From IMG/VR virus record IMGVR_UViG_3300025280_000022: a stretch of 64,000 nt of DNA. One strand, written 5' to 3'. Under the pieces are notes generated by a model. That model worked only from the letters and a program-made list of their open reading frames with translations. It was not told where the DNA came from and ran no database searches. The position numbers and the translations under genes are program-made. Shown one piece after another: positions 1,171 through 12,641 of this stretch (the stretch's first letter is position 1; every line of letters begins with the position of its first letter). Origin of the DNA: a virus.

Positions 1171-1214
1171 CACGGGCGACACTTAAAAAAACTTTATTTT
1201 TTATGATTTAAGGG

Positions 1215-1242: not shown

Positions 1243-1249
1243 TAAAGGC

Positions 1250-1417: not shown

Positions 1418-1423
1418 AGACCC

Positions 1424-1576: not shown

Positions 1577-1872
1577 AAGACAACGACATAGTAGTTTATA
1601 AACTCCTCGATGAGTTTAATCGCTCAAGGGAAGCAATCGTTCAATTTTTGCGTAACAAAGGATTCTCCTGCGAGCAAGCCCACGCAAAGATCATGCGCTA
1701 TCAAAGCGAAACCCAGATTGCCTATCGTGAATTTAAGAACACAGGCTTTACCGATGGCGGTGTCCAGTTTACGATGGAAGACGACCAAAAGGATTTTGGG
1801 AAAGATTATTTTAAACCCGAAGAAAAGATAAAAATTAACTTGGATGATATTGGGGAATTCCCACAATTGTAA
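1573..1872 (+). CDS. hypothetical protein
   Basis: 99-aa ORF coupled to the upstream gene by an ATGA overlap. Confidence 0.75.
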   Translation: MKDNDIVVYKLLDEFNRSREAIVQFLRNKGFSCEQAHAKIMRYQSETQIAYREFKNTGFTDGGVQFTMEDDQKDFGKDYFKPEEKIKINLDDIGEFPQL

Positions 1873-1874
1873 GC

Positions 1875-2123
1875 ATGAATAAACTAGAAAACGCTCTCGC
1901 TTGTCTCGGCATTGATCCCAGCACTTTTGAAGAATGGAAAGCTGATGTCGGGACTGACAAACTTGTTGCGGAAAATGGATTGCTCAAGACTACGGACGAA
2001 GATGTGCGTGATGAACTTGGGCAACTCGATACATCAGTCGAGGATGATCCGATAGACGAAGATGACGAAAACCAAGTAGACATGGATGTGCTGTCTCCAC
2101 ACATGAGAGAGGTATACCAGTAA
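1875..2123 (+). CDS. highly acidic protein, paralog of 10253..10501
   Basis: D/E-rich, with shared motif DPIDEDDExQxDMDxxS. Confidence 0.8.
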   Translation: MNKLENALACLGIDPSTFEEWKADVGTDKLVAENGLLKTTDEDVRDELGQLDTSVEDDPIDEDDENQVDMDVLSPHMREVYQ

Positions 2124-2203
2124 TGTGGGCGTTACCCTTAATCTGTGTAGTTATCTATGCTTACTTAATAGTATTGGTTATTGGATCAAATGCAAACGAT
2201 TGA
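2123..2203 (+). CDS. 26-aa membrane micropeptide
   Basis: TAATG overlap. MWALPLICVVIYAYLIVLVIGSNAND. Confidence 0.5.
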   Translation: MWALPLICVVIYAYLIVLVIGSNAND

Positions 2204-2354
2204 CACTGTAGAAACTAATCCCGAAATACGAGAGATGAATCTGACTTATAGGCAACTTGTTGATCATCTTCTCGACTTGCTCAATCACGGCACGAAGGAC
2301 GAAAAGAATGAGGCTTACGAAAAGCTGATGGCGATTTGTCCCAAGCGGGTTTAA
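2190..2354 (+). CDS. 54-aa hypothetical protein
   Basis: Hand-translated MQTIDTVETNPEIREMNLTYRQLVDHLLDLLNHG..., ending just before a hairpin. Confidence 0.55.
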   Translation: MQTIDTVETNPEIREMNLTYRQLVDHLLDLLNHGTKDEKNEAYEKLMAICPKRV

Positions 2355-2384
2355 ATATCAAATAAGGCTTTTGTCGTGGTTTGC

Positions 2385-2419
2385 GCCTCGTCGGGGTTGG
2401 TGGTTCTCCTCGGCGAGGC
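2385..2419 (+). terminator. hairpin with conserved TTGGTGGTTCT loop (copy 1, no clear U-tract)
   Basis: 12-bp stem gcctcgtcgggg/cctcggcgaggc. Confidence 0.65.
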
Positions 2420-2423
2420 CCTT

Positions 2424-2548
2424 ACCCCGCATGAACACTGGGCTGGAGAGGGGCGGCCTCCCCCGCCCGCCGCCAGCCCGCATGGATACTGGGCTGGTGG
2501 GTGATGCGCGCCCTTATGTATAGAGCCTTATTAACATCTTATGTATAG
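2424..2548 (-). repeat. paired 21-bp sites (2424 and 2475, both rev) followed by CTTATGTATAG boxes
   Basis: accccgcatgaacactgggct and agcccgcatggatactgggct, 51 bp apart. Confidence 0.9.
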
Positions 2549-2596
2549 TGTGCCCAGCACCTGGGCTTTTCCCCCGAAAAAAAGTTAAAAAAACTC

Positions 2597-2624
2597 TTGA
2601 CTTCACAAAAATTTCTGTCATACT
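2597..2624 (+). promoter_or_regulatory. sigma70-type early promoter
   Basis: TTGACT-16-CATACT, extended TG, A-rich UP region. Confidence 0.75.
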
Positions 2625-2662
2625 ATAACTATAATTAAGATTAACCATCAGCCCAAAAAAAC

Positions 2663-2881
2663 ATGACCATCGCCCAACTCGCCCACCAAGATTCCACCGA
2701 ACTCACCGTTGCCCTTTTGGGGTTTGACGCTTGGCTCGCCGACACCGCACCCACTTCCGAGGAGTGGGACAAAATCCTTCACGACATGCAGGCCGAGGAT
2801 GACGCCCACCGTGAAAATGTCTTGCTCAAAGACAATACCGAATTTTCGATGCCTACTGCCAAGGAACTTCGCAGCTGGTAA
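2663..2881 (+). CDS. acidic hypothetical protein
   Basis: 72-aa ORF after the promoter with an A-rich leader. Confidence 0.75.
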   Translation: MTIAQLAHQDSTELTVALLGFDAWLADTAPTSEEWDKILHDMQAEDDAHRENVLLKDNTEFSMPTAKELRSW

Positions 2882-2902
2882 AACCTCAACCCAAGAAAAA
2901 TC

Positions 2903-3175
2903 ATGCTCGACTTGAGTAACGTAGAAAAAATCACCGACCCAGAGGTCATCGCGCAGGACGCGTTCGACGCGGGTTGGGAGGGACGTCTCTCCTGTAACAT
3001 GCCCGCGCAGTATGCGGACGTGGGCAACAACTGGCGCATCTGGGCAGACGAATGGCAGTCTGGTCATCGTGACGCGCAGGACGATGTCGCCTACTATCGG
3101 GCGGACGCGCAGGGGCCAGACGCGACTGGCCAGAGTGACTGGGCGATGGATCAGTTCGTGGACGAGTCGCTTTAG
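2903..3175 (+). CDS. acidic Trp-rich hypothetical protein
   Basis: 90 aa, D/E-rich, AFDAGWEG...WQSG pattern. Confidence 0.75.
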   Translation: MLDLSNVEKITDPEVIAQDAFDAGWEGRLSCNMPAQYADVGNNWRIWADEWQSGHRDAQDDVAYYRADAQGPDATGQSDWAMDQFVDESL

Positions 3176-3245
3176 TTGGCTCTATTACTGGGCTGGCGGG
3201 CGGCGGGCCCTCCCGCCCCGCTCCAGGCCGCTCTATGACTGGGCT
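3174..3245 (-). repeat. paired 21-bp sites (3174 and 3225, rev)
   Basis: agttggctctattactgggct and aggccgctctatgactgggct, 51 bp apart. Confidence 0.88.
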
Positions 3246-3273
3246 GGCGGGCGAAAGTTTTTTAAAAAAACGC

Positions 3274-3301
3274 TTGACATCCTACCCCTATAGTATATTA
3301 T
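3274..3301 (+). promoter_or_regulatory. sigma70-type promoter upstream of the tRNA-like RNA
   Basis: TTGACA-16-TATTAT. Confidence 0.65.
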
Positions 3302-3332
3302 TGAAGGTAGTTAATTGAAAGACTTTTATTGT

Positions 3333-3478
3333 GGGGTCGTAGCTCAGATAGGTGAGAGCACCAGTCTACGCCAAGGGGGTTGATCTCCCCGAAACTCGCC
3401 AAGCATGAGGTACCGCTTGCAAGGTTGGGGGAAGCGATAATAGACTGGAGGTCGAGGGTTCGAGTCCCTCCGATCCCT
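3333..3478 (+). ncRNA. tRNA-like RNA with a 71-nt insertion in the anticodon loop (amino acid identity not assignable)
   Basis: Acceptor GGGGTCG/CGATCCC, D arm GCTC-AGATAGGTGA-GAGC, anticodon stem CCAGT/ACTGG, variable loop AGGTC, T arm GAGGG-TTCGAGT-CCCTC. Loop 3366-3443 is 78 nt. No encoded CCA. Confidence 0.85.
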
Positions 3479-3490
3479 GCTTTTTCTGTA

Positions 3491-3560
3491 GATCGAAAGA
3501 TTGAACAACGAGGCGTCAGCACACGCCTACAACCCTTCGGGGAGAGAGAAAAAGGTTCAC
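3491..3560 (+). ncRNA. candidate small structured RNA downstream of the tRNA-like gene
   Basis: GATC-GAAA-GATT hairpin, then TGAAC/GTTCA closing AGGCGT/ACGCCT and CCC-TTCG-GGG hairpins. Confidence 0.45.
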
Positions 3561-3567
3561 AATTTAG

Positions 3568-3596
3568 TTGACATCTCGCACTTTTTACTGTAAAAT
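3568..3596 (+). promoter_or_regulatory. sigma70-type promoter
   Basis: TTGACA-17-TAAAAT. Confidence 0.75.
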
Positions 3597-3619
3597 TATC
3601 TTAAATCAAAATTAAAACC

Positions 3620-3901
3620 ATGGAATACCATAGCATTAAAGTTATCGACCGTTGGAATCAAGATGAAGACGGCAACCATCTGGAAGTAAGAGTGGGAATG
3701 TCTGCACCATCTGCGCAGGACGCAGTTGACTATATCGCAGACGCTTTCAATGTTCGCCCCGAAGACAAGCGTTACCTAGTTTTGTCCCAAGAGGATGAAA
3801 AGCGTATGTACGCTGAATTTAGCGACTCAATCGAAAGCGCAACCTTTGGAGGGTATGAGTTAGCTGATGGGTTGGCTTTTGCTTACGACATAGACGACTA
3901 A
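3620..3901 (+). CDS. acidic hypothetical protein
   Basis: 93-aa ORF with AAAACCATG start context. Confidence 0.8.
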   Translation: MEYHSIKVIDRWNQDEDGNHLEVRVGMSAPSAQDAVDYIADAFNVRPEDKRYLVLSQEDEKRMYAEFSDSIESATFGGYELADGLAFAYDIDD

Positions 3902-3908
3902 TTGCTCT

Positions 3909-3980
3909 GATTGGCTCTATCATTGGGCTGGCGGGCGGCGCTCTCCTCCGCCCCGCTCCAGCCCGCTCTATGACTGGGCT
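3909..3980 (-). repeat. paired 21-bp sites (3909 and 3960, rev)
   Basis: gattggctctatcattgggct and agcccgctctatgactgggct, 51 bp apart. Confidence 0.88.
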
Positions 3981-4007
3981 GGAGGTCGATAAAAAACGAA
4001 AAAACTC

Positions 4008-4035
4008 TTGACTTTGTTTAATTTTCTGTCATACT
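4008..4035 (+). promoter_or_regulatory. sigma70-type promoter
   Basis: TTGACT-16-CATACT, extended TG. Confidence 0.75.
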
Positions 4036-4070
4036 TTATATAAAGATTAACATTATTAAGATAAAAAACC

Positions 4071-4337
4071 ATGAGTAACCACGACCAAGCATACATTGAA
4101 AAGTTTCAATCCGAAGACACCACCTACAATGGGTGGAAGAATCATGCCACCTGGAATGTCGCCCTTTGGATTGGTAGCGACCAAGGGCTGTATGAATTTG
4201 CCAAGGAGTGTGGCGACTACGACACCTTCAAAGATTCTTTGCGTGATGTCGGCCAACTGGAAACGCCCGACCGAGTTGCCTATAACGATTCGGCTCTCGA
4301 CCTCGAAAGCCTTAACGAATATATCAGCGAATTATAA
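4071..4337 (+). CDS. conserved phage early protein (YNGWxNxxTWNVALWI family)
   Basis: Motif recalled from widespread phage hypothetical proteins. Confidence 0.8.
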   Translation: MSNHDQAYIEKFQSEDTTYNGWKNHATWNVALWIGSDQGLYEFAKECGDYDTFKDSLRDVGQLETPDRVAYNDSALDLESLNEYISEL

Positions 4338-4338
4338 C

Positions 4339-4367
4339 TTGACAAAAACCTCAAATTAGTACATTAT
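4339..4367 (+). promoter_or_regulatory. sigma70-type promoter (leaderless)
   Basis: TTGACA-17-CATTAT. ATG at 4375. Confidence 0.65.
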
Positions 4368-4374
4368 TGTTACC

Positions 4375-4707
4375 ATGAAAACATTCGATGATTTAGCATT
4401 CGCAGTCCATCCCAACGTGGATGGTGGTTTAATGGCTCGCCTTGACCTTGGCGACTATCAAGTTTCCGTTGTGACCATGCGAGGCAAGAAGCCCCAGTAT
4501 GGTGGACTCTATGGTTCCCAAGCCGAAGGCACTTATGAAGTTGCCGTTTTTGCCAACACCGAAGGTGTCGATGGTAAGGATATGGTTCACCTGTCGGAGT
4601 GGGATGACGTTCTCGGCTGGCAATCGCCCGAACAGATTACCGCCATCATGGCGAAAATCCAAGAGGGTAATGGTGCAAGCCTAAATCAACCCCAAGCTGT
4701 TTGGTAA
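4375..4707 (+). CDS. conserved phage hypothetical protein (MKTFxDLxF...YEVAV...DDVxGW family)
   Basis: 110-aa ORF with motifs recalled from phage hypotheticals. Confidence 0.8.
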   Translation: MKTFDDLAFAVHPNVDGGLMARLDLGDYQVSVVTMRGKKPQYGGLYGSQAEGTYEVAVFANTEGVDGKDMVHLSEWDDVLGWQSPEQITAIMAKIQEGNGASLNQPQAVW

Positions 4708-4708
4708 A

Positions 4709-4807
4709 ATGATTGCTTCCTCAATTGCTGTTTTGATTGTTTCGCTTGCTTATCTCGGCATTGGTTTAATAGGCACAGGCATCTCCATCTTAATGCGCAA
4801 CAAATAA
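4709..4807 (+). CDS. 32-aa membrane micropeptide
   Basis: MIASSIAVLIVSLAYLGIGLIGTGISILMRNK, abutting the upstream stop. Confidence 0.55.
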   Translation: MIASSIAVLIVSLAYLGIGLIGTGISILMRNK

Positions 4808-4825
4808 ATTTTTGGTGACATGGTT

Positions 4826-4870
4826 AACCCGTCGAGGTTGGTGGTTCTCCTCGGCGGGTTTTTTGTTTTT
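4826..4870 (+). terminator. intrinsic terminator with TTGGTGGTTCT loop (copy 2)
   Basis: aacccgtcgagg/cctcggcgggtt stem followed by a T-tract. Confidence 0.8.
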
Positions 4871-4871
4871 G

Positions 4872-4928
4872 GGTCAAATATCGTATTGTTGGCCAAATAT
4901 CGTATCGTTGGTCAAATATCGCGTTGGT
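4872..4928 (+). repeat. three tandem 19-bp direct repeats (GGYCAAATATCG...)
   Basis: Units start at 4872, 4891 and 4910. Confidence 0.8.
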
Positions 4929-4956
4929 GGTTCAACTGCATCGGCTCAAGCTAATG

Positions 4957-5150
4957 CTTATGCATAGTGATCTATGTATAGTCTATGCATAACGTTTTAT
5001 GTATAGCGTTTTGAGTCATCGCCCGCTAGCCCAGTGATAGAGCGGGCTGCAGCGGGGCGGGGGGGCCCGCCGCCCGCCAGCCCAGTGTTCATGCGGGTTG
5101 CGGGGTGGTCATTAGAATTTCTCCGCCTCGTATTAGTTTTTCTCATACGT
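4957..5150 (+). repeat. junction module: 4x TATGYATA boxes, paired 21-bp sites (5028 and 5079, fwd), ATTAG boxes
   Basis: agcccagtgatagagcgggct and agcccagtgttcatgcgggtt, 51 bp apart. Confidence 0.9.
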
Positions 5151-5233
5151 GCATAATCGCACAATTTTTCCCTTGCGGTTTTGGGAAATGTCTATATTCT
5201 TATAGGTATAGAATCAAACTAGAAAAGAAAATT

Positions 5234-5428
5234 ATGACAAAAGAAACACTCGCCTTAATCATATCCGACAATTTTGAACAAGCAAAGCGTGGAGATGCCT
5301 TTGCGATTTCTGCCATTATCGGAGCGAATGATGAATTGGAGAAAATCAAGCAACTTGAAAAAGACATTGCTTTTGCCCAGATCGTGAAGGGTGAAATTGA
5401 GTGGGAAAAAAACCTAGAAAGTGCTTGA
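5234..5428 (+). CDS. 64-aa hypothetical protein
   Basis: Probable start MTKETLALII at 5234, downstream of TTGCGG-16-TATTCT (5173-5200). Confidence 0.7.
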   Translation: MTKETLALIISDNFEQAKRGDAFAISAIIGANDELEKIKQLEKDIAFAQIVKGEIEWEKNLESA

Positions 5429-5453
5429 CATTTTCGGCAATCTCATATAAAAT
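5425..5453 (+). promoter_or_regulatory. sigma70-type promoter
   Basis: TTGACA-17-TAAAAT. Confidence 0.75.
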
Positions 5454-5492
5454 TGTAGTATATTAAAATTAAGAACCACAAAAGAAAAAACC

Positions 5493-5684
5493 ATGCACCA
5501 CCTAAAAGTAGATATTGTCGATCCTGACACCAACACAATTCTCAAGTCCAACGTCAACATGACAACTGACGGCAAGCTCTCCGTTTGCGAGATGAATGAC
5601 CTCCTCTTTGCCCAAGGTGGCAATGTTTTTCGGGTTGTCGAAGTTGTTGAACGAGATCCATTTCTCCCTTGGAAATTGTTTTAA
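5493..5684 (+). CDS. hypothetical protein
   Basis: 63 aa with AAAAAACCATG context. Confidence 0.75.
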   Translation: MHHLKVDIVDPDTNTILKSNVNMTTDGKLSVCEMNDLLFAQGGNVFRVVEVVERDPFLPWKLF

Positions 5685-5688
5685 GGGC

Positions 5689-5717
5689 TTGACAATTTAA
5701 CCCTTTCCCCTCATACT
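5689..5717 (+). promoter_or_regulatory. sigma70-type promoter (leaderless)
   Basis: TTGACA-17-CATACT. ATG at 5724. Confidence 0.7.
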
Positions 5718-5723
5718 AGAACC

Positions 5724-5915
5724 ATGAAAAAACTCGAAGTTATAAAACCACTCCGCATGAACCAGTATCTTTTGAATGTGGGCGACCAATTTGAAGTTGC
5801 CAAGGTCATCGAAGATCCTCTCACTAAAGCAAAATTTTGGCGTCCTGCTAATGTCAAAGGCATGGAAGAAATGTATTGGCTTTTCTCCACAAAAATTTTC
5901 AAAGTTATAGAATAA
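5724..5915 (+). CDS. hypothetical protein
   Basis: 63-aa ORF. Confidence 0.75.
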   Translation: MKKLEVIKPLRMNQYLLNVGDQFEVAKVIEDPLTKAKFWRPANVKGMEEMYWLFSTKIFKVIE

Positions 5916-6088
5916 TGGTTATTGTAGAACAGCACCCAAACATCCAAAAATGGACAAATGTATTCCATGCAGGAAAATTAGTTTTCCAACTATCCTGCCG
6001 AGCTAAAGCCTTGCGTCTCGCCCAGCGTCTCGCCAAGGAAAAAAAGACCGCAGTTTTCGATGTCGATCAAAACGAAACAGTCAAATGA
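5915..6088 (+). CDS. 57-aa hypothetical protein
   Basis: TAATG overlap gives start MVIVEQHPNIQKW. Confidence 0.7.
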   Translation: MVIVEQHPNIQKWTNVFHAGKLVFQLSCRAKALRLAQRLAKEKKTAVFDVDQNETVK

Positions 6089-6326
6089 TTATTTTCGGCC
6101 TATCAATTATCGCCCTTTTAGTTTTTGCATATCTAACCCGATAAAAAAATGATTGAAGTAATTTTGTTTGTTGGTCTTTCCCTTGCTTACGCTAACCTTA
6201 CAACCTAAAAAACACATGAAGCACATTGCCGATTTATTTGCCAAACCGCTTTTGCTGTTGTCCCTGACTGCGTTCCTTTACGTCCTGCATATTGTAGTGA
6301 TGGATTGGATTCGTCTCATCGGTTAA
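6085..6326 (+). CDS. three consecutive hydrophobic micropeptides (6085-6144, 6149-6208, 6216-6326)
   Basis: MIIFGLSIIALLVFAYLTR, MIEVILFVGLSLAYANLTT and MKHIADLFAKPLLLLSLTAFLYVLHIVVMDWIRLIG, tightly packed. Confidence 0.5.
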
Positions 6327-6336
6327 ACAGTCGCCG

Positions 6337-6470
6337 CTATACATAAGCCGCTATACATAAGGCCTTATACATAAGGGCGGCGGGGGGCCGCGGCCCGCCA
6401 GCCCAGTGTTCATGCGGGTTGCGGGGCGGTCATTAGAATTTCTCTGCTCGGTATAAGTTTTGCTCATAAG
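6337..6470 (+). repeat. junction module: 3x TATACATAAG, single 21-bp site (6400), ATTAG boxes
   Basis: agcccagtgttcatgcgggtt at 6400-6420. Confidence 0.88.
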
Positions 6471-6501
6471 ATAAAAAAGTGAAAAAACTTTCACAAAAGG
6501 G

Positions 6502-6529
6502 TTGACTTTATCAAAAATTCTGTCATACT
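6502..6529 (+). promoter_or_regulatory. sigma70-type promoter
   Basis: TTGACT-16-CATACT, extended TG. Confidence 0.75.
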
Positions 6530-6571
6530 ATTATTATATTAAGATTAAAAACCACAAAAAGAAAAACCACC

Positions 6572-6787
6572 ATGATTAAAAAAAATGATATTGTTCGCTC
6601 TCCTCAAGGTCTCGTTGGCGTTGTCCTTGACCTAGTCAAAGACCCTGACGGCATCCAGTTTGCGATTTTCCGTTGCGTTGGTTCGCAACGAAAGGTTGCT
6701 TGCCCAGTTGCCAGCTTAAGCCCGCACAAGTGGCTCAATGTTGTCAGCATCCATCAGGACAACAAGAACCTTCTCGCCAAAAGTTAA
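6572..6787 (+). CDS. small beta-rich (SH3/KOW-like?) protein
   Basis: MIKKNDIV..., resembling the next gene. Confidence 0.7.
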   Translation: MIKKNDIVRSPQGLVGVVLDLVKDPDGIQFAIFRCVGSQRKVACPVASLSPHKWLNVVSIHQDNKNLLAKS

Positions 6788-6790
6788 GCC

Positions 6791-6976
6791 ATGATTAAAA
6801 CTAACGATAAAGTCCTCACTAAAAAAAATTCACTTTGCAAGGTGACTTCCATTCGTGGTCGCTTCGCATTGCTCAAGGGCATTGGCTCGGATCAGTCCCC
6901 GCCTGTACGAGTCCTTGCTTGCATCAGCGACCTGCGGACTCTTAAGGGTTTTCACGGCACTCATATTATTATCTAA
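6791..6976 (+). CDS. small beta-rich protein, likely paralog of 6572..6787
   Basis: MIKTNDKV...LACISDL versus MIKKNDIV...VACPVASL. Confidence 0.7.
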   Translation: MIKTNDKVLTKKNSLCKVTSIRGRFALLKGIGSDQSPPVRVLACISDLRTLKGFHGTHIII

Positions 6977-6987
6977 ACAAAAAAATC

Positions 6988-7185
6988 ATGACACGTAAAC
7001 ACTTCGAGCTTATTGCTCAAACACTCAACAAGGCTCACAAGCACGACCACAACAAAAACGTGGTGCAAGGTATTGCCTTTGACCTATCAACCAAGTTTAA
7101 GGATATCAATCCCAACTTTTCACAAACCAAATTCATGCAGGCAGTCATGGCCGATTCAGGACTGTTCTTCACCAACGGAAAATGA
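6988..7185 (+). CDS. conserved phage hypothetical protein (MTRKHFxxIA family)
   Basis: N-terminal motif and NPNF...KF recalled from phage hypotheticals. Confidence 0.8.
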   Translation: MTRKHFELIAQTLNKAHKHDHNKNVVQGIAFDLSTKFKDINPNFSQTKFMQAVMADSGLFFTNGK

Positions 7186-7394
7186 CTGATCTAAAACAAT
7201 TACCTTATTGCCTAAACTTTCTCGCTAGGAACAGCGGGGACGTTTATTATCGAGCGAGTCACCAAAATTTTAAAACTATCGGTGACGCTTTGCGTTTTAT
7301 CTGCGACTTGAAAAAGTCGGACAAGCAAACCCGTGACCGCTATCTTTACAAGCGTACAGGTCGCAGGGGATTTGACTTTATTAACCAATATTAA
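7182..7394 (+). CDS. hypothetical protein
   Basis: 70 aa, ATGA overlap. Confidence 0.7.
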   Translation: MTDLKQLPYCLNFLARNSGDVYYRASHQNFKTIGDALRFICDLKKSDKQTRDRYLYKRTGRRGFDFINQY

Positions 7395-7413
7395 AAACTT
7401 TTGACAGCATGGC

Positions 7414-7452
7414 GTGCGGCGGGGTTGGTGGTTCTCCCCGTCGCACTTTTTC
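7414..7452 (+). terminator. intrinsic terminator with TTGGTGGTTCT loop (copy 3)
   Basis: gtgcggcgggg/ccccgtcgcac stem followed by a T-tract. Confidence 0.8.
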
Positions 7453-7453
7453 G

Positions 7454-7745
7454 TTATACATAAGCCACTATACATAAGGCCTTATACATAAGGGCGGCGG
7501 GGGGCCGCGGCCCGCCAGCCCAGTGTTTATGCGGGTTGCGGGGCGGTCGTTAGGTAAGTTGCAACTTACTAAAACGCATTGTTTGAATTAAATCCGAATT
7601 AAATCGGATTTAATTTTTTCCTCCGAATTTCCTGCAAAAAAAGGAGCTTTAACGGATTTTTTTTGCATTTATTTTCGTGTTTGGCTCTATTAGTGGCCTC
7701 GTGGCGTGTTTTTTTTATCGTATTTTCCCAAAATTAGTTTATAAT
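7454..7745 (+). repeat. junction module: TATACATAAG x3, 21-bp site (7517), palindrome GTAAGTTGCAACTTAC (7554-7569), AATTAAATC repeats, degenerate reverse site (7679), promoter TCGTAT-16-TATAAT
   Basis: Near-identical to the blocks at 8.53-8.88 and 9.65-10.0 kb. Confidence 0.88.
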
Positions 7746-7779
7746 GGTAACATACAAAATTGAGAAAGACCAAACTTTA

Positions 7780-7860
7780 AGCGTAACGGCAAAACCCTAC
7801 CATCGGCCACTAATTAGAGAGTCGCCACAAAAGGGAAATTGAAAAAACAAAACTACGCTA
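7780..7860 (+). ncRNA. candidate structured 5' leader RNA (copy 1)
   Basis: Homologous to 8925-9003 with a compensatory outer stem, GCGTA/TACGC versus ACGCA/TGCGT. Confidence 0.5.
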
Positions 7861-7892
7861 ACTTTAAAAAAACCACTAAATCCAAAAAAATC

Positions 7893-8123
7893 ATGTTCAA
7901 AGCTACTCATTTAGTCCTCACTCCTCACGCAGGAAATTCCGCCTTTGGGGTGGGATTCTCCCCTTCTCCCAAGAAGGCAATCGCCTTGGCGAAAGTCAAC
8001 GCCGACATCAACCTTGATAGGTTCGATGCCGAGCATGGCATTTGCTCCTCCATTGGCGGGGAAGTCACCAACCTTTTCAACGCCTCCAATGGTGTCCACA
8101 TCCACCAAAACCTCGACCTTTAG
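7893..8123 (+). CDS. 76-aa hypothetical protein
   Basis: Probable start MFKATHLVLT after an A-rich leader. Confidence 0.7.
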   Translation: MFKATHLVLTPHAGNSAFGVGFSPSPKKAIALAKVNADINLDRFDAEHGICSSIGGEVTNLFNASNGVHIHQNLDL

Positions 8124-8127
8124 TCCT

Positions 8128-8307
8128 ATGACCAGAGAAGAAAACAAAACTTACCTGCAAACCAGAATTGCCAACCTGAAGGCTGAAGTCGCTGGGCTTG
8201 TTGCAAGAGACGCAAGAGACGGAGAGATCCGAGCTTGCAAGTCGGAGCTTGCCCGCCATGAACAGGCTCTTGTGTGGCTCCACAACAGGATTGCCACAAG
8301 CCTCTAA
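8128..8307 (+). CDS. 59-aa coiled-coil hypothetical protein
   Basis: MTREENKTYLQTRIANLKAEV..., 4 nt after the upstream stop. Confidence 0.7.
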   Translation: MTREENKTYLQTRIANLKAEVAGLVARDARDGEIRACKSELARHEQALVWLHNRIATSL

Positions 8308-8333
8308 TTTAACCACAAACAAAAACCACTACA

Positions 8334-8525
8334 ATGCAATTCATTATAGCAACCACCAAGTCGGGCGTTTATCGCCTGCAAGTCTTCAATCGTGGGTTCC
8401 AGATTGGAACACACAACTCCGTCAGTCGGAAGTATGTTAAGCGTGTCATTCGCAAGTACACCGCTCGCATGGTGTCCTCATCCCATGCGGCACATGGCAA
8501 GCCTGTAAATGTCATTTGGGCATAG
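8334..8525 (+). CDS. basic hypothetical protein
   Basis: 63 aa with an AACCAC-rich leader. Confidence 0.7.
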   Translation: MQFIIATTKSGVYRLQVFNRGFQIGTHNSVSRKYVKRVIRKYTARMVSSSHAAHGKPVNVIWA

Positions 8526-8526
8526 C

Positions 8527-8877
8527 CTTATGTATAACGCTTATGCATAGCTTATGCATAGCGTCTTATGTATAGCGTTTAAGCTCATCGGCCGCTAGCC
8601 CAGTCATAGAGCGGGCTGTAGCGTGGCGGCGGACGCCGCGGCCCGCCAGCCCAGTGTTTATGCGGGTTGCGGGGCGGTCGTTAGGTAAGTTGCAACTTAC
8701 TAAAAACGCATTGCTCGAATTAAATCCGAATTAAATCCGATTTAATTTTTCCCCCCGAATTTTCCGCAATTTAAGGAGCTTTAAACGATTTTTTTTGCAT
8801 TTATTTTCGCATTTGGCTCTATTAGTGGCCTCGTGGCCCGATTTTGTTCTCGTATTTTTCGAAAAATGGTTTATAAT
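8527..8877 (+). repeat. junction module: TATGYATA x4, paired sites (8597, 8648), palindrome 8685-8700, degenerate reverse site 8811, promoter TCGTAT-16-TATAAT
   Basis: 51-bp spacing, read directly. Confidence 0.9.
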
Positions 8878-8924
8878 GGTAACATAGAAAATTAGAAAAG
8901 ACCTCACCAAAAAGACTTTACGAC

Positions 8925-9003
8925 ACGCAACGGCAAAACCCTAAACTCGGCCACTAATTTGAGAGTCGCCACAAAAGGGACATTGAAAAAACAACACTGC
9001 GTT
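8925..9003 (+). ncRNA. candidate structured 5' leader RNA (copy 2)
   Basis: See copy 1 at 7780-7860. Confidence 0.5.
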
Positions 9004-9034
9004 TCACTTTAAAAAATCCTGTAAATCAAAAAAA

Positions 9035-9157
9035 ATGTTCATCCGAAATCCAAACGTCATTTAACGCCCTCCTGATGGTGAGATGGGCGCGCCAAGATTA
9101 TGACAAAGAAAATTCCCATTTAACGCTCGTATGACGGGGAGATGAGCGCCCCAAGAT
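9035..9157 (+). ncRNA. two tandem minigene+pseudoknot units (59-nt period)
   Basis: MFIRNPNVI* (9035-9064) and MTKKIPI* (9100-9123), each followed by CGCYC...GGKG-AGAT-GRGCG-CSCC-AAGAT with covarying stems. Confidence 0.6.
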
Positions 9158-9182
9158 AAAAAATTTAAAACCACAAAAACCC

Positions 9183-9338
9183 ATGCAAACAATTTCTGAT
9201 TTAAAAAACCTTATAAGCTCCGCCAAATGTGGAACCGACTTGACTATTGCCCGAACAATGGTTCAATGGTCGGACGTTCCGCCTCCCATTAAGGCGCTTT
9301 TATTCCAGCAGATTGTAGACAAAAGAAAAACCCTTTAA
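9183..9338 (+). CDS. 51-aa protein, paralog of 11306..11512
   Basis: MQTISDLKNLISSA...IARTMV..SDVP..IK..LF.Q..DK. Confidence 0.75.
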   Translation: MQTISDLKNLISSAKCGTDLTIARTMVQWSDVPPPIKALLFQQIVDKRKTL

Positions 9339-9345
9339 GACCATT

Positions 9346-9492
9346 ATGACAAAAAACGAAAAAATCGCTCGCCTTGAAACTCACCTTGCTTGGTGGACTG
9401 CCAAGCTTAACCGCTCACGCAAGAACTCCTTGATTGCCATGCGTGCGTTGCATGTCAACGCAATCCGCAAGGAACTTGAAGCCCTCAAGTAG
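9346..9492 (+). CDS. 48-aa basic helical protein, paralog of 10514..10660
   Basis: LAWWTAKLNRSRK...NAIRKELEALK. Confidence 0.8.
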   Translation: MTKNEKIARLETHLAWWTAKLNRSRKNSLIAMRALHVNAIRKELEALK

Positions 9493-9498
9493 ACTTTT

Positions 9499-9651
9499 AT
9501 GTACGTCCTACAATCAACAACTAAAGCCAAAGATTGGCAAGCTGAAACCCTGCCGATGCCTTTGGCTGTCGCGGACAAACTGGTGCGCCAGCGTATCGCT
9601 CAGGCTTCAGGCTGTCGCCGTTATCGCCTTGTCAAGGTGCGCGTAGCGTAG
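9499..9651 (+). CDS. 50-aa hypothetical protein
   Basis: Hand-translated MYVLQSTTKAKDWQAETLPMP.... The stop abuts the repeat module. Confidence 0.65.
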   Translation: MYVLQSTTKAKDWQAETLPMPLAVADKLVRQRIAQASGCRRYRLVKVRVA

Positions 9652-9652
9652 C

Positions 9653-10007
9653 CTTATGTATAACGCTTATGCATAGCTTATGCATAGCGTCTTATGCATA
9701 GCGTTTAAGCTCATCGGCCGCTAGCCCAGTCATAGAGCGGGCTGCAGCGGGGCGCGGGAGCCCGCCGCCCGCCAGCCCAGTGTTCATGCGGGTTGCGGGG
9801 CGGTCGTTAGGTAAGTTGCAACTTACATGGGCGATTCATTTATTCCGAATTAAATCCGATTTAATTGCCTATTTAATTTTTCCCCCGAATTTTCCGCAAT
9901 TTAGGGAGCTTTAAGCGATTTTTTTTACGATTATTTTCACGTTTGGCTCTATGACTGGGCTGGCGGGTGAAGATTGTTATTGTATTTTTCACAAATTCGT
10001 TTATAAT
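9653..10007 (+). repeat. junction module: TATGYATA x4, paired sites (9723, 9774), palindrome 9811-9826, reverse site 9941, promoter TTGTAT-16-TATAAT
   Basis: 51-bp spacing, read directly. Confidence 0.9.
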
Positions 10008-10052
10008 GGTACCATACAAAATTAAGAAAGTTAACCACCAAAGATAAAAACC

Positions 10053-10226
10053 ATGTTTAAAGTTATAGAAGTTCGTTTTGATATCCTAACAGGAAACGAG
10101 TCCGAGCATATCCTGCTCAAGACCAACCACAAGCTCCTAGCCGATGAGGCTTGCAAGGATGCAAATGCCTCATTTGAGGGTGACGTTCCTGGGTTCGAGT
10201 CTTTCGCTGTTGTCGTCAAAGTTTAA
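10053..10226 (+). CDS. 57-aa hypothetical protein
   Basis: Hand-translated MFKVIEVRFDILTGNESEHILLKT..., AAAAACCATG context. Confidence 0.7.
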   Translation: MFKVIEVRFDILTGNESEHILLKTNHKLLADEACKDANASFEGDVPGFESFAVVVKV

Positions 10227-10252
10227 ACACAAACAAAAAAGAAAAAACCACC

Positions 10253-10501
10253 ATGAGCAAATCCATCTCACAACTCCCTCTCGCCCTTCAATCCCTCTTT
10301 GCCGAGCTACACGCCGAGCAAGCCGTCGAGCAAGTCTTGGATGCCGTAGACGGCACACAAACCAAAGCAACGTCCGAGGACATCATGGACGAATTTGTCC
10401 GCATCGAAACCGAAGTCGATGCCGATCCCATCGACGAAGACGACGAAGAACAGATCGACATGGACTGCGTGTCCGTCGAGATGCTGGAGATGTTCAGCTA
10501 A
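10253..10501 (+). CDS. highly acidic protein, paralog of 1875..2123
   Basis: DPIDEDDEEQIDMD motif. Confidence 0.8.
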   Translation: MSKSISQLPLALQSLFAELHAEQAVEQVLDAVDGTQTKATSEDIMDEFVRIETEVDADPIDEDDEEQIDMDCVSVEMLEMFS

Positions 10502-10513
10502 ACTTTAACTATT

Positions 10514-10660
10514 ATGTCAAAACAAAAAGAAATCGAAAAGCTCGAAAGAGATCTCGCTTGGTGGACTGCCAAGCTCAACAAGTCACGCAAGGAATCCTTG
10601 CGTTCCATCCGTGCGTTACACGCTAACGCTATCCGCAAGGAGCTTGAAGCTCTCAAGTAG
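10514..10660 (+). CDS. 48-aa basic helical protein, paralog of 9346..9492
   Basis: LAWWTAKLNKSRK...NAIRKELEALK. Confidence 0.8.
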   Translation: MSKQKEIEKLERDLAWWTAKLNKSRKESLRSIRALHANAIRKELEALK

Positions 10661-10661
10661 C

Positions 10662-10903
10662 CTTATGTATAGCGTTATACATAGCTTATGTATAGTGTCT
10701 TATGTATAGCGTTCACAGCCATCGGCCGCTAGCCCAGTCGTAGAGCGGGCTAGAGCCTGACGGCGGGGCCCGCGGCCCGCCAGCCCAGTGTTTATGCGGG
10801 TTGCGGGGTGGTCATTAGAATCTCACTCGCTCGCATTAGTTTTGCTTATACGTATACAACTGCATGATATTTTTCTTGTGATTGCTGAAAATTCTGTCAT
10901 ACT
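10662..10903 (+). repeat. junction module: TATRYATA x4, paired sites (10731, 10782), ATTAG boxes, promoter TTGTGA-16-CATACT
   Basis: 51-bp spacing, read directly. Confidence 0.9.
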
Positions 10904-10923
10904 ATTATATAAAGATTAAGAAA

Positions 10924-11250
10924 ATGGAAGAATCAAAAGCACAAAGAAAAGCCGCCCGAGACGCCCACATAAAAGCGCATCGTGCATGGCTGGCAAGCCC
11001 AGAAACCCACGCCGCTACAAGAAAAGCTCTGGAAGACAACGCCAAGTTGTGCATGGGAGAACCTTCGGGAGCGCAATTTCCACCTTCCCGTGAAACGCAG
11101 ATATTGTTTGCCAAGCGATTCCGCAGGAACTTCTTCTCCGTGGTCGATGAATTCAACGCAGACCAAGCCGCGCTGGACGATGCCGAGCTGGAGAAGCTCG
11201 CGCAGGAAAAGGTTCGCATGCAAGGTTTGCAGCCAAAATTAAAGGCTTGA
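10924..11250 (+). CDS. 108-aa hypothetical protein
   Basis: Probable start MEESKAQ downstream of the promoter. Confidence 0.75.
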   Translation: MEESKAQRKAARDAHIKAHRAWLASPETHAATRKALEDNAKLCMGEPSGAQFPPSRETQILFAKRFRRNFFSVVDEFNADQAALDDAELEKLAQEKVRMQGLQPKLKA

Positions 11251-11275
11251 CACTTTACAGAAAATCCTATAAAAT
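11247..11275 (+). promoter_or_regulatory. sigma70-type promoter
   Basis: TTGACA-17-TAAAAT. Confidence 0.75.
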
Positions 11276-11305
11276 TATATCATAGAAAAAATTAAGGAAA
11301 TCACC

Positions 11306-11512
11306 ATGCATAAAACAATTATCCACTTAAAAAATCTCATTGAAGTTGCCGAGTCCCATGCCGATTTCGAGATTGCTCGAACAGCGGTCAGGGATTCCGA
11401 CATTCCCCGCATTATCAAAGTTGATTTTTTCCGCCAGCTTTCCGACAAGCAAAGCCGTCAGGCGTTCATTGAAGAATGTTTCCATGCGAGGGAAGCGCTG
11501 TTCTCCTCTTAA
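11306..11512 (+). CDS. 68-aa protein, paralog of 9183..9338
   Basis: MHKTIIHLKNLIEVA...IARTAV..SDIP..IK. Confidence 0.75.
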   Translation: MHKTIIHLKNLIEVAESHADFEIARTAVRDSDIPRIIKVDFFRQLSDKQSRQAFIEECFHAREALFSS

Positions 11513-11513
11513 G

Positions 11514-11720
11514 ATGGAAGCTCAACCTTTTGTTCTCACCACATTGCCAGAGCTTGGCAATGAGCCAGTCATTATTTCAAGGAATCATATTTTTTATGAG
11601 GCTAAAAAGTCTGATGTATTTTTAAACACGGCGACAGTCAACGCAAACTTGCACAGGCTCGCAGATGTAACGCTAGCCTTGGGGTGGGGAGAGCATACGG
11701 TCTGGCAGGTACTCCTTTAA
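11514..11720 (+). CDS. 68-aa hypothetical protein
   Basis: ATG 1 nt after the upstream stop. Confidence 0.55.
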   Translation: MEAQPFVLTTLPELGNEPVIISRNHIFYEAKKSDVFLNTATVNANLHRLADVTLALGWGEHTVWQVLL

Positions 11721-11915
11721 TCAGTTCAAGCACTCCCCCCATTTCGAAAAAAAAGCGGAGGGGGGAAACTCAGACAACGCCGCGGGGGCCCTTTTTTCAT
11801 TCGTGGGGGCACCCCCCACCCGTTTGAATAAAAGTATCTGAAGATATATAAACATAATAAAACGCTTAACCAAAAAAAAATCCGAAGGCCTAGGGAATGA
11901 GTGTAATTATATGTG

Positions 11916-12641
11916 ATGGCACGAAGAAAAAGGCGAACATCGCCAGAAGTCCCCCAATCGATTGTAGAATCCGAATTAGAAAATCCATTTTTCTATATAA
12001 AAAATCACAGACTTACTGAAAAACAGAAGTCTTTTGCCGAGATCGCTATTGATCCTAAGACCAAAATTATGCTTATTAATGGCCCTGCGGGAAGCAGTAA
12101 GACTTATATGGCAATTTATGCCGCATTGCGATTATTGGCCCAAGATAAGGAATTAGAGCTATTATATGTTAGAACTATTATAGAAAGCGCCGAAAGAAAT
12201 ATGGGCGCCCTCCCTGGTAATGCGGATGAAAAGTTTAATCCCTATATGTTACCTCTCGAGGATAAACTAGAAGAATTATTGAAACCCTCTGATCATCAAA
12301 GACTATTCCACGAAAAGCGAATAGAAGCAATGCCAATAAATTATTTACGGGGAGCTAATTGGAGAAATAAGCTTGTGGTGGCCGATGAGGCTCAAAATTT
12401 CAGCTTTAAGGAATTAACCACTTTAATAACAAGAATAGGAGAAGGTACGAAAATATTTGTTTGCGGCGATTTCATGCAAAGTGATATTAATGGCAAAACG
12501 GGCTATCGAGCAATGTGCGATAGATTTACCGATCCAGAAAGTAAAAAGCTGGGGATCCATACTTTTCGGTTTGGAATAGAGGATATTAAGCGCAGTAAGA
12601 TTCTAAAATTTATCATAAAACGACTGCAGGAAACGAATTAA
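11916..12641 (+). CDS. phoH: PhoH-family ATPase
   Basis: GPAGSSKT Walker A, GALPG..EK..PY, YLRG, DEAQN, TRIGE, GD..QSD. Confidence 0.92.
   Translation: MARRKRRTSPEVPQSIVESELENPFFYIKNHRLTEKQKSFAEIAIDPKTKIMLINGPAGSSKTYMAIYAALRLLAQDKELELLYVRTIIESAERNMGALPGNADEKFNPYMLPLEDKLEELLKPSDHQRLFHEKRIEAMPINYLRGANWRNKLVVADEAQNFSFKELTTLITRIGEGTKIFVCGDFMQSDINGKTGYRAMCDRFTDPESKKLGIHTFRFGIEDIKRSKILKFIIKRLQETN

What the first reader, a model, noticed from the sequence alone, without database searches (positions are those of the whole stretch)
9035..9157. Tandem minigene + covarying pseudoknot units
Seen: two units with a 59-nt period. Each is a tiny ORF ending ATT-TAA (MFIRNPNVI*, MTKKIPI*) followed immediately by stem 1 (CGCCC/GGGCG versus CGCTC/GAGCG) and a crossing stem 2 (GGTG/CGCC versus GGGG/CCCC). 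Both stems show compensatory changes, while TGAY, AGAT and AAGAT are invariant. Known: type III antitoxins are tandem pseudoknot repeats and a phage mimic (pseudo-ToxI) exists; lambda bar minigenes trap peptidyl-tRNA. Inference: this could be an antitoxin-mimic RNA, a translation-termination/stalling element or a tandem aptamer. The two stems could also be alternative folds, since there is no linker between their 3' strands.
Basis: partly seen in the sequence, partly recalled or inferred. Interest (0 to 1): 0.75.

Follow-up and report, generated by a model that had tools for sequence, protein, structure and literature searches.

The report
Translated minigene plus RNA-switch leader units
The two short repeats in front of an early operon of an uncultured marine phage are copies of an uncatalogued leader element: a translated 7-10-codon mini-gene whose stop codon abuts a small two-helix RNA fold. 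The element recurs 17 times in eight related phage contigs, and it probably lets ribosomes tune early gene expression.

Summary
The two 41-nt repeats (9058-9098 and 9117-9157) each follow a tiny ORF whose TAA abuts a 5-bp stem.

A covariance model built from them finds 17 units in eight marine phage contigs, in arrays of one to three. Where the upstream sequence is readable, each array sits just after an early promoter and before the first real early gene.

- **Stem 1:** paired in every unit where the position is aligned, and all five pairs show double compensatory changes.
- **Stem 2:** a G-run in the loop pairs with a C-run just after stem 1. It has a 3-bp core and two independent compensated changes.
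- **Minigene:** it is under peptide-level selection. Third codon positions vary synonymously around a Lys-Ile/Thr-Pro-Asn-stop core.

There is no Rfam match, and no copy in 185,579 species genomes under the one class I pattern scanned.

The antitoxin-mimic reading is not supported. Units within one array differ, no host copy turned up, and no toxin gene was found.

My best reading is a translated leader switch. A ribosome ending the minigene must melt stem 1, which toggles stem 1 against stem 2. The working analogy is the repY-repZ leader-peptide and pseudoknot coupling of IncI/IncB plasmids. The mechanism is inferred, not shown.

Earlier notes of this scan describe other minigene-plus-knot RNAs in other phages, but not this element.

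The parts
8872..8877 (+). Predicted -10 hexamer (TATAAT) of the early promoter in the repeated promoter module 8520-9034. It would start the transcript that carries the units.
   Evidence: Read directly from the sequence. The module is repeated at 7493-7891 and 9646-10030. The simple promoter scan did not score it because no good -35 lies at 16-18 nt, so this is inferred.
9035..9064 (+). Minigene 1, nine codons plus TAA (M-F-I-R-N-P-N-V-I-stop).
   Evidence: Its ATG sits where the ATG (7893) of a real 76-aa gene sits in the paralogous module. The homologous minigene in L170 (M-Y-Q-R-N-P-S-V-N-stop) keeps Arg through a CGA/AGA change.
9065..9093 (+). RNA fold of unit 1. Stem 1 is 9065-9069 with 9085-9089. 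Stem 2 is 9077-9080 with 9090-9093. Loop segments are 9070-9076 and 9081-9084.
   Evidence: The stem 1 hairpin is -8.7 kcal/mol and the stem 2 hairpin alone is -4.5 kcal/mol.
9094..9099 (+). Conserved tail of unit 1 (A-A-G-A-U-U), which runs directly into the start codon of minigene 2.
   Evidence: The tail is kept in all 17 units. The distance to the next ATG is 1 nt.
9100..9123 (+). Minigene 2, seven codons plus TAA (M-T-K-K-I-P-I-stop). A natural variant at 9119 (T to A) makes the last residue Asn, as in most family members.
9124..9152 (+). RNA fold of unit 2. Stem 1 is 9124-9128 with 9144-9148. Stem 2 is 9136-9139 with 9149-9152.
   Evidence: Stem 1 is -6.0 and stem 2 alone is -6.3 kcal/mol, so the two are nearly equally stable.
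9153..9182 (+). Tail of unit 2 plus an A/C-rich, unstructured leader with no Shine-Dalgarno sequence, up to the first real gene.
9183..9651 (+). Downstream early genes: 51 aa (9183-9338), 48 aa of the LAWW family (9346-9492) and 50 aa (9499-9651).
   Evidence: In natural variants the units are joined directly to the 48-aa gene (joint 9162 to 9334), or are absent together with the 51-aa gene (joint 9015 to 9340).

Best explanation
The units are a cis-acting, translated leader module of early phage mRNAs. Each unit has three parts:
- a short ORF of 7-10 codons, most often ending Lys-Ile/Thr-Pro-Asn-stop;
- a 5-bp hairpin (stem 1) that starts at the first base after the stop codon;
- a second short helix (stem 2) between a G-run in the hairpin loop and a C-run directly 3' of the hairpin, followed by a conserved A-A-N-G-A-U tail.

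Only 0-1 nt separates the 3' strands of the two stems. A classic coaxial H-type pseudoknot is therefore sterically unlikely, and the two helices most likely alternate.

A ribosome that finishes the minigene has the 5' strand of stem 1 inside its mRNA channel and must melt stem 1. This frees the 3' half of the unit to adopt the stem 2 form, or in the four array-terminal units to be opened completely. When the ribosome leaves, stem 1 re-forms.

In this way ribosome traffic on the minigene sets the RNA conformation just upstream of the next start codon, which is either the next minigene (from overlapping the tail to 7 nt after the unit) or the first real gene (12-43 nt after it). Early gene output would then be coupled to how fast the host ribosome initiates, elongates through the proline codon and terminates.

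Shown: the element exists, both helices covary, the peptide is under selection, and the position relative to genes is fixed (just after promoters predicted from sequence). Inferred: that the ORF is translated in vivo, that the two helices alternate, and the direction of the effect on downstream expression.
For: 1. **Family.** Model R2 finds 17 units in eight contigs at 31-67 bits, while the best unrelated hit in 1.08 Mb of related phage DNA scores 16 bits. Ten of the 17, including one unit of L150 and the six in L166, L170, L172 and L173 that first came to light in this search, were not in the training set.
2. **Stem 1.** Paired in every cell with letters on both sides (one gap in L172's second unit), and all five pairs show changes on both sides. 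0 of 500 shuffles reach the observed covariation, and slid controls drop to 36-60% paired. RNAalifold predicts the same helix on its own.
3. **Stem 2.** The 3-bp core is kept. The only change in each of two columns is compensated within the same unit: U.G in unit 1 of the window and C-G in L170.
4. **Peptide selection.** In 12 distinct units the last three sense codons vary mainly at third positions (column entropy 0.92-1.38, against 0-0.41 at first positions and 0-0.81 at second positions), and synonymously. Arg is kept as CGA or AGA. The two minigenes of L136 encode the same heptapeptide with three synonymous differences.
5. **Stop codon placement.** TAA abuts stem 1 in 13 of 17 units. In the four array-terminal units a sense codon replaces it, and a stop (TGA three times, TAG once) follows 9 nt later inside the loop.
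6. **Position.** Where the upstream sequence is readable, arrays sit just after sigma-70-like early promoters and before the first gene. The ATG of minigene 1 occupies the start site of a real gene in the paralogous module.
7. **Energies.** Stem 1 is -5.5 to -8.7 kcal/mol. Stem 2 alone is +0.3 to -6.3 kcal/mol, so stem 2 would form mainly when stem 1 is held open.
8. **No Shine-Dalgarno use.** These phage genes lack Shine-Dalgarno sequences, so initiation should be sensitive to nearby structure.
9. **Working precedent.** In IncI1 and IncB/O plasmids, translation of a leader peptide and formation of a pseudoknot are both needed for repZ translation (PMC8053102, citing Asano and Mizobuchi 1998 and Praszkier and Pittard 2002).
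Against: - There are no expression, ribosome-profiling or structure-probing data.
- The real gene behind each array has its own unstructured start region 12-43 nt past the last unit. The fold therefore cannot simply mask that start site, and related phages express the same genes from leaders without any unit. The effect on the main gene is unclear.
- In the four array-terminal units the terminating ribosome would also cover the G-run, so the idea that stem 2 forms while the ribosome terminates cannot hold for them.
- Stem 2 covariation rests on two single sequences.
- The alignment used for the pair counts was fitted to a model that contains stem 1.
- A side-by-side arrangement in which both helices form at once is not excluded.
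- The host is unknown.
Confidence: 0.45

Rival explanations
1. The units are an mRNA 5' stabiliser or insulator. Compact folds near the 5' end, kept occupied by ribosomes on the minigenes, would protect early transcripts from 5'-end-dependent decay (RNase E, RNase J, RppH), or would mark processing sites at the conserved tail. They would not switch translation.
For: In at least five arrays (L136, L149, L150, L166, L172) the units lie within about 0-30 nt of the predicted transcript start, and the first minigene is nearly leaderless in L149, L166 and L172. The tail is the most conserved single-stranded part. Small knots that stop exonucleases and ribosomes exist in RNA viruses (PMC6546385, PMC10520033).
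Against: In the window the first unit lies about 150 nt from the predicted start. The fold lacks the linker needed for the ring-like topology of known nuclease-resistant RNAs (PMC11702639). This reading does not explain why the peptide sequence itself is conserved.
Confidence: 0.2
2. The units are tandem small aptamers, that is, a riboswitch. The two-helix fold would bind a metabolite or ion, and binding would change how the ribosome terminates or restarts.
For: Conserved unpaired nucleotides flank covarying helices. The size (27-33 nt) and helix order recall the smallest pseudoknot aptamers. Tandem arrangement is known for riboswitches. The element lies in a 5' leader.
Against: No Rfam family matches even at E up to 10. 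The loops vary from 9 to 15 nt, and their sequence is only loosely kept. The downstream genes are unrelated small proteins of unknown function, so no ligand logic is apparent.
Confidence: 0.1
3. The element is a trans-acting weapon or decoy. Abundant early RNA would trap host ribosomes, release factor or a tRNA (like toxic minigenes), or would mimic an RNA antitoxin or target of a host defence nuclease.
For: The element is expressed from early promoters in one to three copies. The short ORFs end in a proline-containing motif, which may terminate slowly.
Against: Units within one array differ in stem 1, unlike antitoxin arrays. The one class I pattern scanned found no copy in 185,579 species genomes. 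No ToxN-family gene is in the record (weak test). The element always occupies a cis position directly upstream of a gene, and many close relatives lack it.
Confidence: 0.1
4. The units have no function. They would be leftovers of gene starts and ends, produced by recombination in a mosaic early region and duplicated once.
For: The early region is a mosaic of repeated modules. The starts of both minigenes resemble starts of real neighbouring genes.
Against: Seventeen units in eight contigs keep both helices through compensatory change. They also keep the reading frame, the stop and the peptide through synonymous change.
Confidence: 0.03
5. The units are a recoding signal: -1 frameshifting, bypassing or readthrough at the minigene stop, stimulated by the downstream fold.
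For: In seven units (eight including L166's third unit, where only the Pro codon matches) the Pro-Asn codon pair forms a heptamer of the slippery X-XXY-YYZ type 3 nt before stem 1. Small knots can drive frameshifting (PMC10321173).
Against: The heptamer is lost in units that use the other synonymous codons. The spacer is only 3 nt. No conserved extended ORF exists in any frame, and the two window units are in different frames.
Confidence: 0.02

Closest known systems
Leader-peptide plus pseudoknot translational coupling of IncI1 (ColIb-P9 repY-repZ) and IncB/O (pMU720 repB-repA) plasmids
   Same: A short leader ORF must be translated. A G-rich hairpin loop pairs with a C-rich run close to the next start site. 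Ribosome passage and termination decide which RNA conformation exists (PMC8053102 for the statement; the details come from my own knowledge of Asano and Mizobuchi 1998 and Praszkier and Pittard 2002, which were not held here).
   Different: In the plasmids the loop and its partner are about 100 nt apart, the leader stop overlaps the rep start, an inhibitory hairpin masks the rep ribosome-binding site, and an antisense RNA competes for the loop. Here everything fits in about 30 nt, the units come in arrays of one to three, the main gene start is not masked, and no antisense RNA is known. This is an analogy of mechanism, not homology.
Leader-peptide translational attenuators (ermC, cat-86, cmlA) and stop-codon arrest peptides (TnaC type)
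   Same: A short conserved peptide in a 5' leader lies next to alternative RNA pairings, and ribosome position remodels the RNA.
   Different: Those hairpins sequester the downstream ribosome-binding site or expose a Rho site, and the stall needs a drug or metabolite. Here no masked start site or terminator is visible, and no inducer is known.
Lambda bar minigenes
   Same: Tiny ORFs in early phage transcripts.
   Different: Bar ORFs are two sense codons with a strong Shine-Dalgarno sequence and no conserved downstream fold. Here the ORFs have 7-10 codons, a selected peptide, no Shine-Dalgarno sequence and a covarying fold.
Type III antitoxin RNAs (ToxI, CptI, TenpI) and phage pseudo-ToxI
   Same: Tandem short pseudoknot-capable repeats, and a known example of phage mimicry.
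   Different: Antitoxin arrays are near-identical head-to-tail repeats without ORFs, next to an endoribonuclease gene. Here units of one array differ, they contain translated ORFs, and no toxin gene or host copy was found.
Coremin motif (xrRNA-C) of RNA viruses, and the 27-nt knot placed after stop codons that earlier notes of this scan report in many phages
   Same: A small hairpin whose loop pairs with downstream bases, sometimes placed just after a stop codon. Such knots can stall ribosomes (PMC10520033, PMC10321173).
   Different: Coremin has a 3-bp stem, a 4- or 6-nt loop of fixed consensus, a conserved spacer of about 10 nt and a second hairpin. Here the stem is 5 bp, the loop is 9-15 nt, there is no spacer and no second hairpin. 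A look-up by sequence found no look-alike in the scan's notes.
preQ1-I riboswitch (the smallest pseudoknot aptamer)
   Same: A 5-bp first helix, a 3-4-bp second helix, about 30 nt in all, located in a 5' leader, sometimes in tandem.
   Different: preQ1-I has an A-rich third loop of 6-7 nt between the helices. Here that loop is 0-1 nt. There is no Rfam match.

Membership tests
Type III antitoxin RNA (ToxI-like) or phage mimic of one | Near-identical head-to-tail repeats with no unrelated spacer | tested here: not met
   The window units are 80% identical over 41 nt, with a non-homologous 18-nt spacer. Units of one array in L136, L150, L166, L172 and L173 carry different stem 1 sequences; the two L170 units share theirs.
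Type III antitoxin RNA (ToxI-like) or phage mimic of one | Adjacent ToxN/AbiQ-type endoribonuclease gene, or for a mimic a matching repeat in a host genome | tested here: inconclusive
   No PF13958 match in the 93-kb record, but the control genomes did not ring either. The downstream genes encode only 48-51 aa. A pattern scan of 185,579 species genomes gave only two chance hits without stems.
Lambda bar-type toxic minigene | ORF of about two sense codons behind a strong Shine-Dalgarno sequence | tested here: not met
   The ORFs have 7-10 codons, and no Shine-Dalgarno sequence lies upstream of them or of the phage genes in general.
Coremin / xrRNA-C | 3-bp first hairpin with a loop of 4 or 6 nt matching the YGAD or YGNNAD consensus | tested here: not met
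   The stem is 5 bp and the loops are 9-15 nt without that consensus. Definition taken from PMC6546385 and PMC10520033.
Coremin / xrRNA-C | Conserved spacer of about 10 nt followed by a second hairpin | tested here: not met
   The C-run follows stem 1 after 0-1 nt. What follows is a start codon or an unstructured A-rich leader.
Classic H-type pseudoknot that stimulates -1 frameshifting | Slippery heptamer 5-9 nt upstream, and a third loop long enough to cross stem 1 | tested here: not met
   A heptamer is present only with one synonymous codon choice and lies 3 nt from stem 1. The third loop is 0-1 nt, and there is no extended ORF.
Any Rfam 15 family, including preQ1-I, glutamine-II and pistol | Covariance-model score at or near the family threshold | tested here: not met
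   Nothing reached the gathering score in this region, and only chance-level hits appeared at E up to 10.
Leader-peptide plus pseudoknot coupling (IncI1/IncB rep type), as a way of working | Translated leader ORF under selection | tested here: met
   Third-position synonymous variation, stops retained, and start sites in the usual context of early genes. Translation itself was not observed.
Leader-peptide plus pseudoknot coupling (IncI1/IncB rep type), as a way of working | Hairpin-loop to downstream pairing supported by covariation | tested here: met
   Stem 2 has a 3-bp core in 16 of 17 units, and two compensated changes.
Leader-peptide plus pseudoknot coupling (IncI1/IncB rep type), as a way of working | Leader stop overlaps or abuts the regulated start, whose ribosome-binding site is masked; antisense RNA control | tested here: not met
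   The next ATG lies roughly 31-35 nt after the stop for internal units, and 42-75 nt for the real gene. The real gene start region is unstructured. Antisense RNA was not tested.

The most novel reading that the evidence does not exclude
The conserved peptide ending Lys-Ile/Thr-Pro-Asn-stop is a new, very short termination- or elongation-arrest peptide. Together with the abutting two-state RNA, it would form a phage-encoded sensor of the host's translation state (for example release factor, EF-P or tRNA supply), used in arrays of one to three to time or gate early gene expression in hosts that do not use Shine-Dalgarno pairing.
Probability: 0.2. Interest if true: 0.8.

Novelty: new variant of a known kind. 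Interest (0 to 1): 0.62.

Why it matters
Regulation of phage early genes is known almost only from a few model phages. The very abundant uncultured marine phages are a blank in this respect.

This finding gives a compact, sharply defined and easily synthesised element of about 55-65 nt per unit. Three layers of comparative evidence support it: two covarying helices and a selected heptapeptide.

If it works as proposed, it would be a miniature, modular version of leader-peptide-controlled RNA switching. It would also be a new short peptide that acts on the ribosome near termination, in a system that initiates without Shine-Dalgarno pairing. Such parts are useful for studying termination, reinitiation and ribosome helicase action, and as small synthetic control elements.

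Tried and rejected
**Searches that found nothing**
- Rfam at gathering score and at E up to 10: nothing relevant.
- blastn of 8400-10200 against 50,697 phage records: no match.
- Terminase against the same records: identity of 28% or less, so there is no cultured relative and no host clue.
- Three pattern scans of IMG/VR: zero hits or chance hits only.
- Model R2 over 48 whole related viral records: no new unit.
- Genome scan of 185,579 species: two chance hits.
- Sequencing runs: no RNA holder listed. Contigs of four marine DNA runs gave variants and joints only, and nothing on expression.
- ToxN family search of the record: no match, and the control was silent.

**Steps that could not be run**
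That class was therefore sought only with the model in loci already held.
- The primary papers on ColIb-P9 and pMU720 were not held.

**Readings considered and dropped**
- A micro-ORF starting at the ATG inside the loop: not conserved outside class I units.
- The G-run as a Shine-Dalgarno site: the phage does not use them, and the spacing is wrong.
- A mimic of the tRNA 3' end in the C-run: broken by the compensated change in L170.
- Translational bypassing from the last sense codon to a matching codon in the tail: frames and codons are inconsistent between units.
- A third helix between the minigene and the tail: fails in the Thr variants and in class I units.
- A DNA-level operator: a G.U pair and the strict orientation with the genes argue for RNA.

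Full report
**Setting**

The window is part of a 93-kb IMG/VR virus record that CheckV rates about half complete. It carries a large terminase (18004-19893), a 2841-aa tape-measure protein (36273-44798) and PhoH. No cultured relative exists. Public runs that hold the stretch are marine or seawater metagenomes.

Positions 1100-12000 are an early region of small ORFs. It is punctuated by a repeated module of 380-500 nt, with copies at 7493-7891, 8520-9036 and 9646-10030 and partial copies elsewhere. The module ends in a -10-like hexamer at 8872-8877.

The finding lies about 150 nt downstream of that hexamer and directly upstream of three small genes. The phage's genes have no Shine-Dalgarno sequences.

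**The observation**

There are two tiny ORFs, 9035-9064 and 9100-9123, each ending with an isoleucine codon and TAA. Each is followed at once by a 5-bp stem and a crossing 4-bp stem.

The two 41-nt copies are 80% identical and 59 nt apart. They are the only matches to the unit pattern in the window and in the whole record, where none is expected by chance.

The region does not fold more stably than shuffled sequence (z = 0.21), and no Rfam family matches. With only two copies, the case rested on two compensated differences.

**Relatives**

- A relaxed pattern scan of JGI metagenome contigs returned an identical copy (L143).
- The same scan returned a different contig, L136, with two tandem units after a clear promoter. 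One of these units has a completely different stem 1.
- A model built from three units (R1) recovered that divergent unit at the expected place.
- Searching for the 48-aa downstream protein family in IMG/VR gave L149 (one unit) and L150 (three units).
- The family is recognisable by a Leu-Ala-Trp-Trp motif and has at least 188 clusters in marine data.
- A second model (R2) was built from seven units. With contigs fetched through members of that protein family, it found further units in L166, L170, L172 and L173.
- In all, 17 units in eight contigs score 31-67 bits. The best unrelated hit in 1.08 Mb of related phage DNA scores 16 bits.
- Forty-eight whole records of terminase relatives hold no further unit.
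- One class I unit pattern was scanned against 185,579 species genomes and found no copy.
- Several close relatives express the same downstream genes from plain leaders without units.

The element is therefore real but confined to a narrow phage group and patchy within it. Natural variants of this very phage have the units joined directly to the 48-aa gene, or lack them altogether.

**Structure**

On the 17-unit alignment:
- Stem 1 is paired in every cell with letters on both sides; the only exception is one gap in L172's second unit.
- Stem 1 occurs in five sequence versions: CGCCC/GGGCG, CGCTC/GAGCG, GAGCC/GGCTC, GCACC/GGTGC and GGGCT/AGCCC.
- All five pairs of stem 1 show changes on both sides.
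- No shuffle of 500 reaches the observed covariation. Sliding the partners by 1-3 columns drops pairing to 36-60%.
- RNAalifold predicts the same helix unaided.

Stem 2 has a 3-bp core of G-C pairs between a G-run in the loop and the C-run that starts 0-1 nt after stem 1. A fourth pair is not kept. In two of its columns the single deviating sequence carries a compensating change in the partner column. These are U.G in unit 1 of the window and C-G in the second unit of L170. By my rough estimate this has a chance of about one in a thousand.

Loop lengths run from 9 to 15 nt. The tail A-A-(C/U or nothing)-G-A-U is kept in all units.

With no linker between the 3' strands, a coaxial H-type knot cannot form. 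The helices either alternate or pack side by side. Taken alone, stem 1 is worth -5.5 to -8.7 kcal/mol and stem 2 is worth +0.3 to -6.3 kcal/mol.

**The minigene**

The ORFs encode, among others:
- M-K-M-K-I-P-N
- M-I-M-K-I-P-N
- M-K-T-K-T-P-N
- M-T-K-K-I-P-I (a natural variant ends in N)
- M-R-M-R-K-V-Q-S-P-T
- M-R-M-R-K-A-L-N
- M-F-I-R-N-P-N-V-I, with its L170 counterpart M-Y-Q-R-N-P-S-V-N

Evidence for selection at the peptide level:
- In the 12 distinct units of the commonest type, the last three sense codons vary mainly at third positions, and synonymously.
- The two L136 minigenes give the same heptapeptide through three synonymous differences.
- The Arg of the window's first minigene is CGA here and AGA in L170.

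TAA abuts stem 1 in 13 units. In the four units that end an array, a Gln codon replaces it. The frame then runs through the 5' strand of stem 1 and stops 9 nt later, at TGA in three units and TAG in one.

Start codons sit in the usual context of the early genes. The ATG of minigene 1 occupies the position of a real gene's ATG in the paralogous module. In L149, L166 and L172 the first minigene starts almost at the predicted transcript start.

This is the signature of a translated ORF whose peptide matters.

**Mechanism**

A ribosome with the stop codon in its A site holds roughly the next ten bases in its channel (established knowledge of ribosome footprints). Stem 1 must therefore be open whenever a ribosome ends the minigene.

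I take the element to be a ribosome-operated leader switch. The conformation just upstream of the next start codon depends on ribosome traffic over the minigene, and the proline-containing peptide end may slow that traffic.

The nearest working precedent is the IncI1 and IncB/O plasmid rep leader. There, leader-peptide translation and a loop-to-downstream pseudoknot are both required for translation of the rep gene (PMC8053102).

Weak points:
- The real gene's own start region is unstructured and lies 12-43 nt past the last unit.
- The array-terminal units would have both helices opened by the ribosome.
- Nothing is known about expression.

I give this reading 0.45. The rivals are 5' stabiliser or insulator (0.2), tandem aptamer (0.1), trans-acting decoy or trap including the antitoxin mimic (0.1), recombination debris (0.03) and recoding signal (0.02).

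**Comparison with known systems**

The element fails the defining features of each of these:
- Type III antitoxin arrays: the repeats are not near-identical, and no toxin or host copy was found.
- Lambda bar minigenes: ORF length and lack of a Shine-Dalgarno sequence.
- The coremin motif: stem size, loop consensus, spacer and second hairpin (PMC6546385, PMC10520033, PMC10321173).
- Frameshift knots.
- Every Rfam family.

It shares its logic, but not its layout, with leader-peptide attenuators and the plasmid rep leaders.

Earlier notes of this scan describe other minigene-plus-knot RNAs and a 27-nt knot after stop codons in other phages. A look-up by sequence found no look-alike of this element outside its own genome.

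**Verdict**

This is a real, conserved and uncatalogued cis element, a new variant of the leader-peptide-plus-RNA-switch kind. The comparative evidence for its anatomy is strong, while the mechanism is only inferred.

Noticed in passing
window 3333-3478 (+): Rfam tRNA model matches end to end at 52 bits over 146 nt, about twice the length of a tRNA, while ARAGORN calls nothing. This suggests a tRNA-shaped RNA with a large insertion. Another first-stage note describes it (e1-5732707).
   Followed up: no
window 7493-7891, 8520-9036, 9646-10030; partial copies near 1094, 2426, 3187, 3921, 4957, 6375, 10658: A repeated early-region module of 380-500 nt. It contains arrays of a 10-nt near-palindrome, a GC-rich segment present in both orientations, a 16-nt perfect palindrome, an AT-rich repeat and a -10-like hexamer. 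It looks like a promoter/terminator cassette boundary.
   Followed up: partly
window 9346-9492 and 10514-10660; L136 1976-2167 (-): A family of small basic helical proteins (48-63 aa, with a Leu-Ala-Trp-Trp motif) has at least 188 clusters at 90% identity in marine metagenomes. It has no Pfam or PHROG match, and often has several copies per phage early region.
   Followed up: partly
window, upstream of 34 long ORFs: Almost no Shine-Dalgarno motifs at the right distance. Start codons are preceded by A/T-rich or A/C-rich stretches, which suggests a host that initiates without Shine-Dalgarno pairing. The early promoters nevertheless look sigma-70-like rather than Bacteroidota-like.
   Followed up: partly
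window 9015/9340 and 9162/9334 (joints in marine runs): Natural variants of this phage lack the units together with the 51-aa gene, or lack only the 51-aa gene. The early region is therefore reshuffled at cassette boundaries within populations.
   Followed up: no
L149 about 205-245; L166 about 3268-3301; L172 about 4253-4292: The first minigene overlaps or directly follows the predicted -10 hexamer, so its mRNA would be leaderless or nearly so.
   Followed up: no
window 8925-9003 and 7780-7860: The 150-nt leaders behind the two paralogous promoters are homologous up to the start codon, and another first-stage note says they have compensated stems. I saw the homology but did not test the structure.
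   Followed up: no
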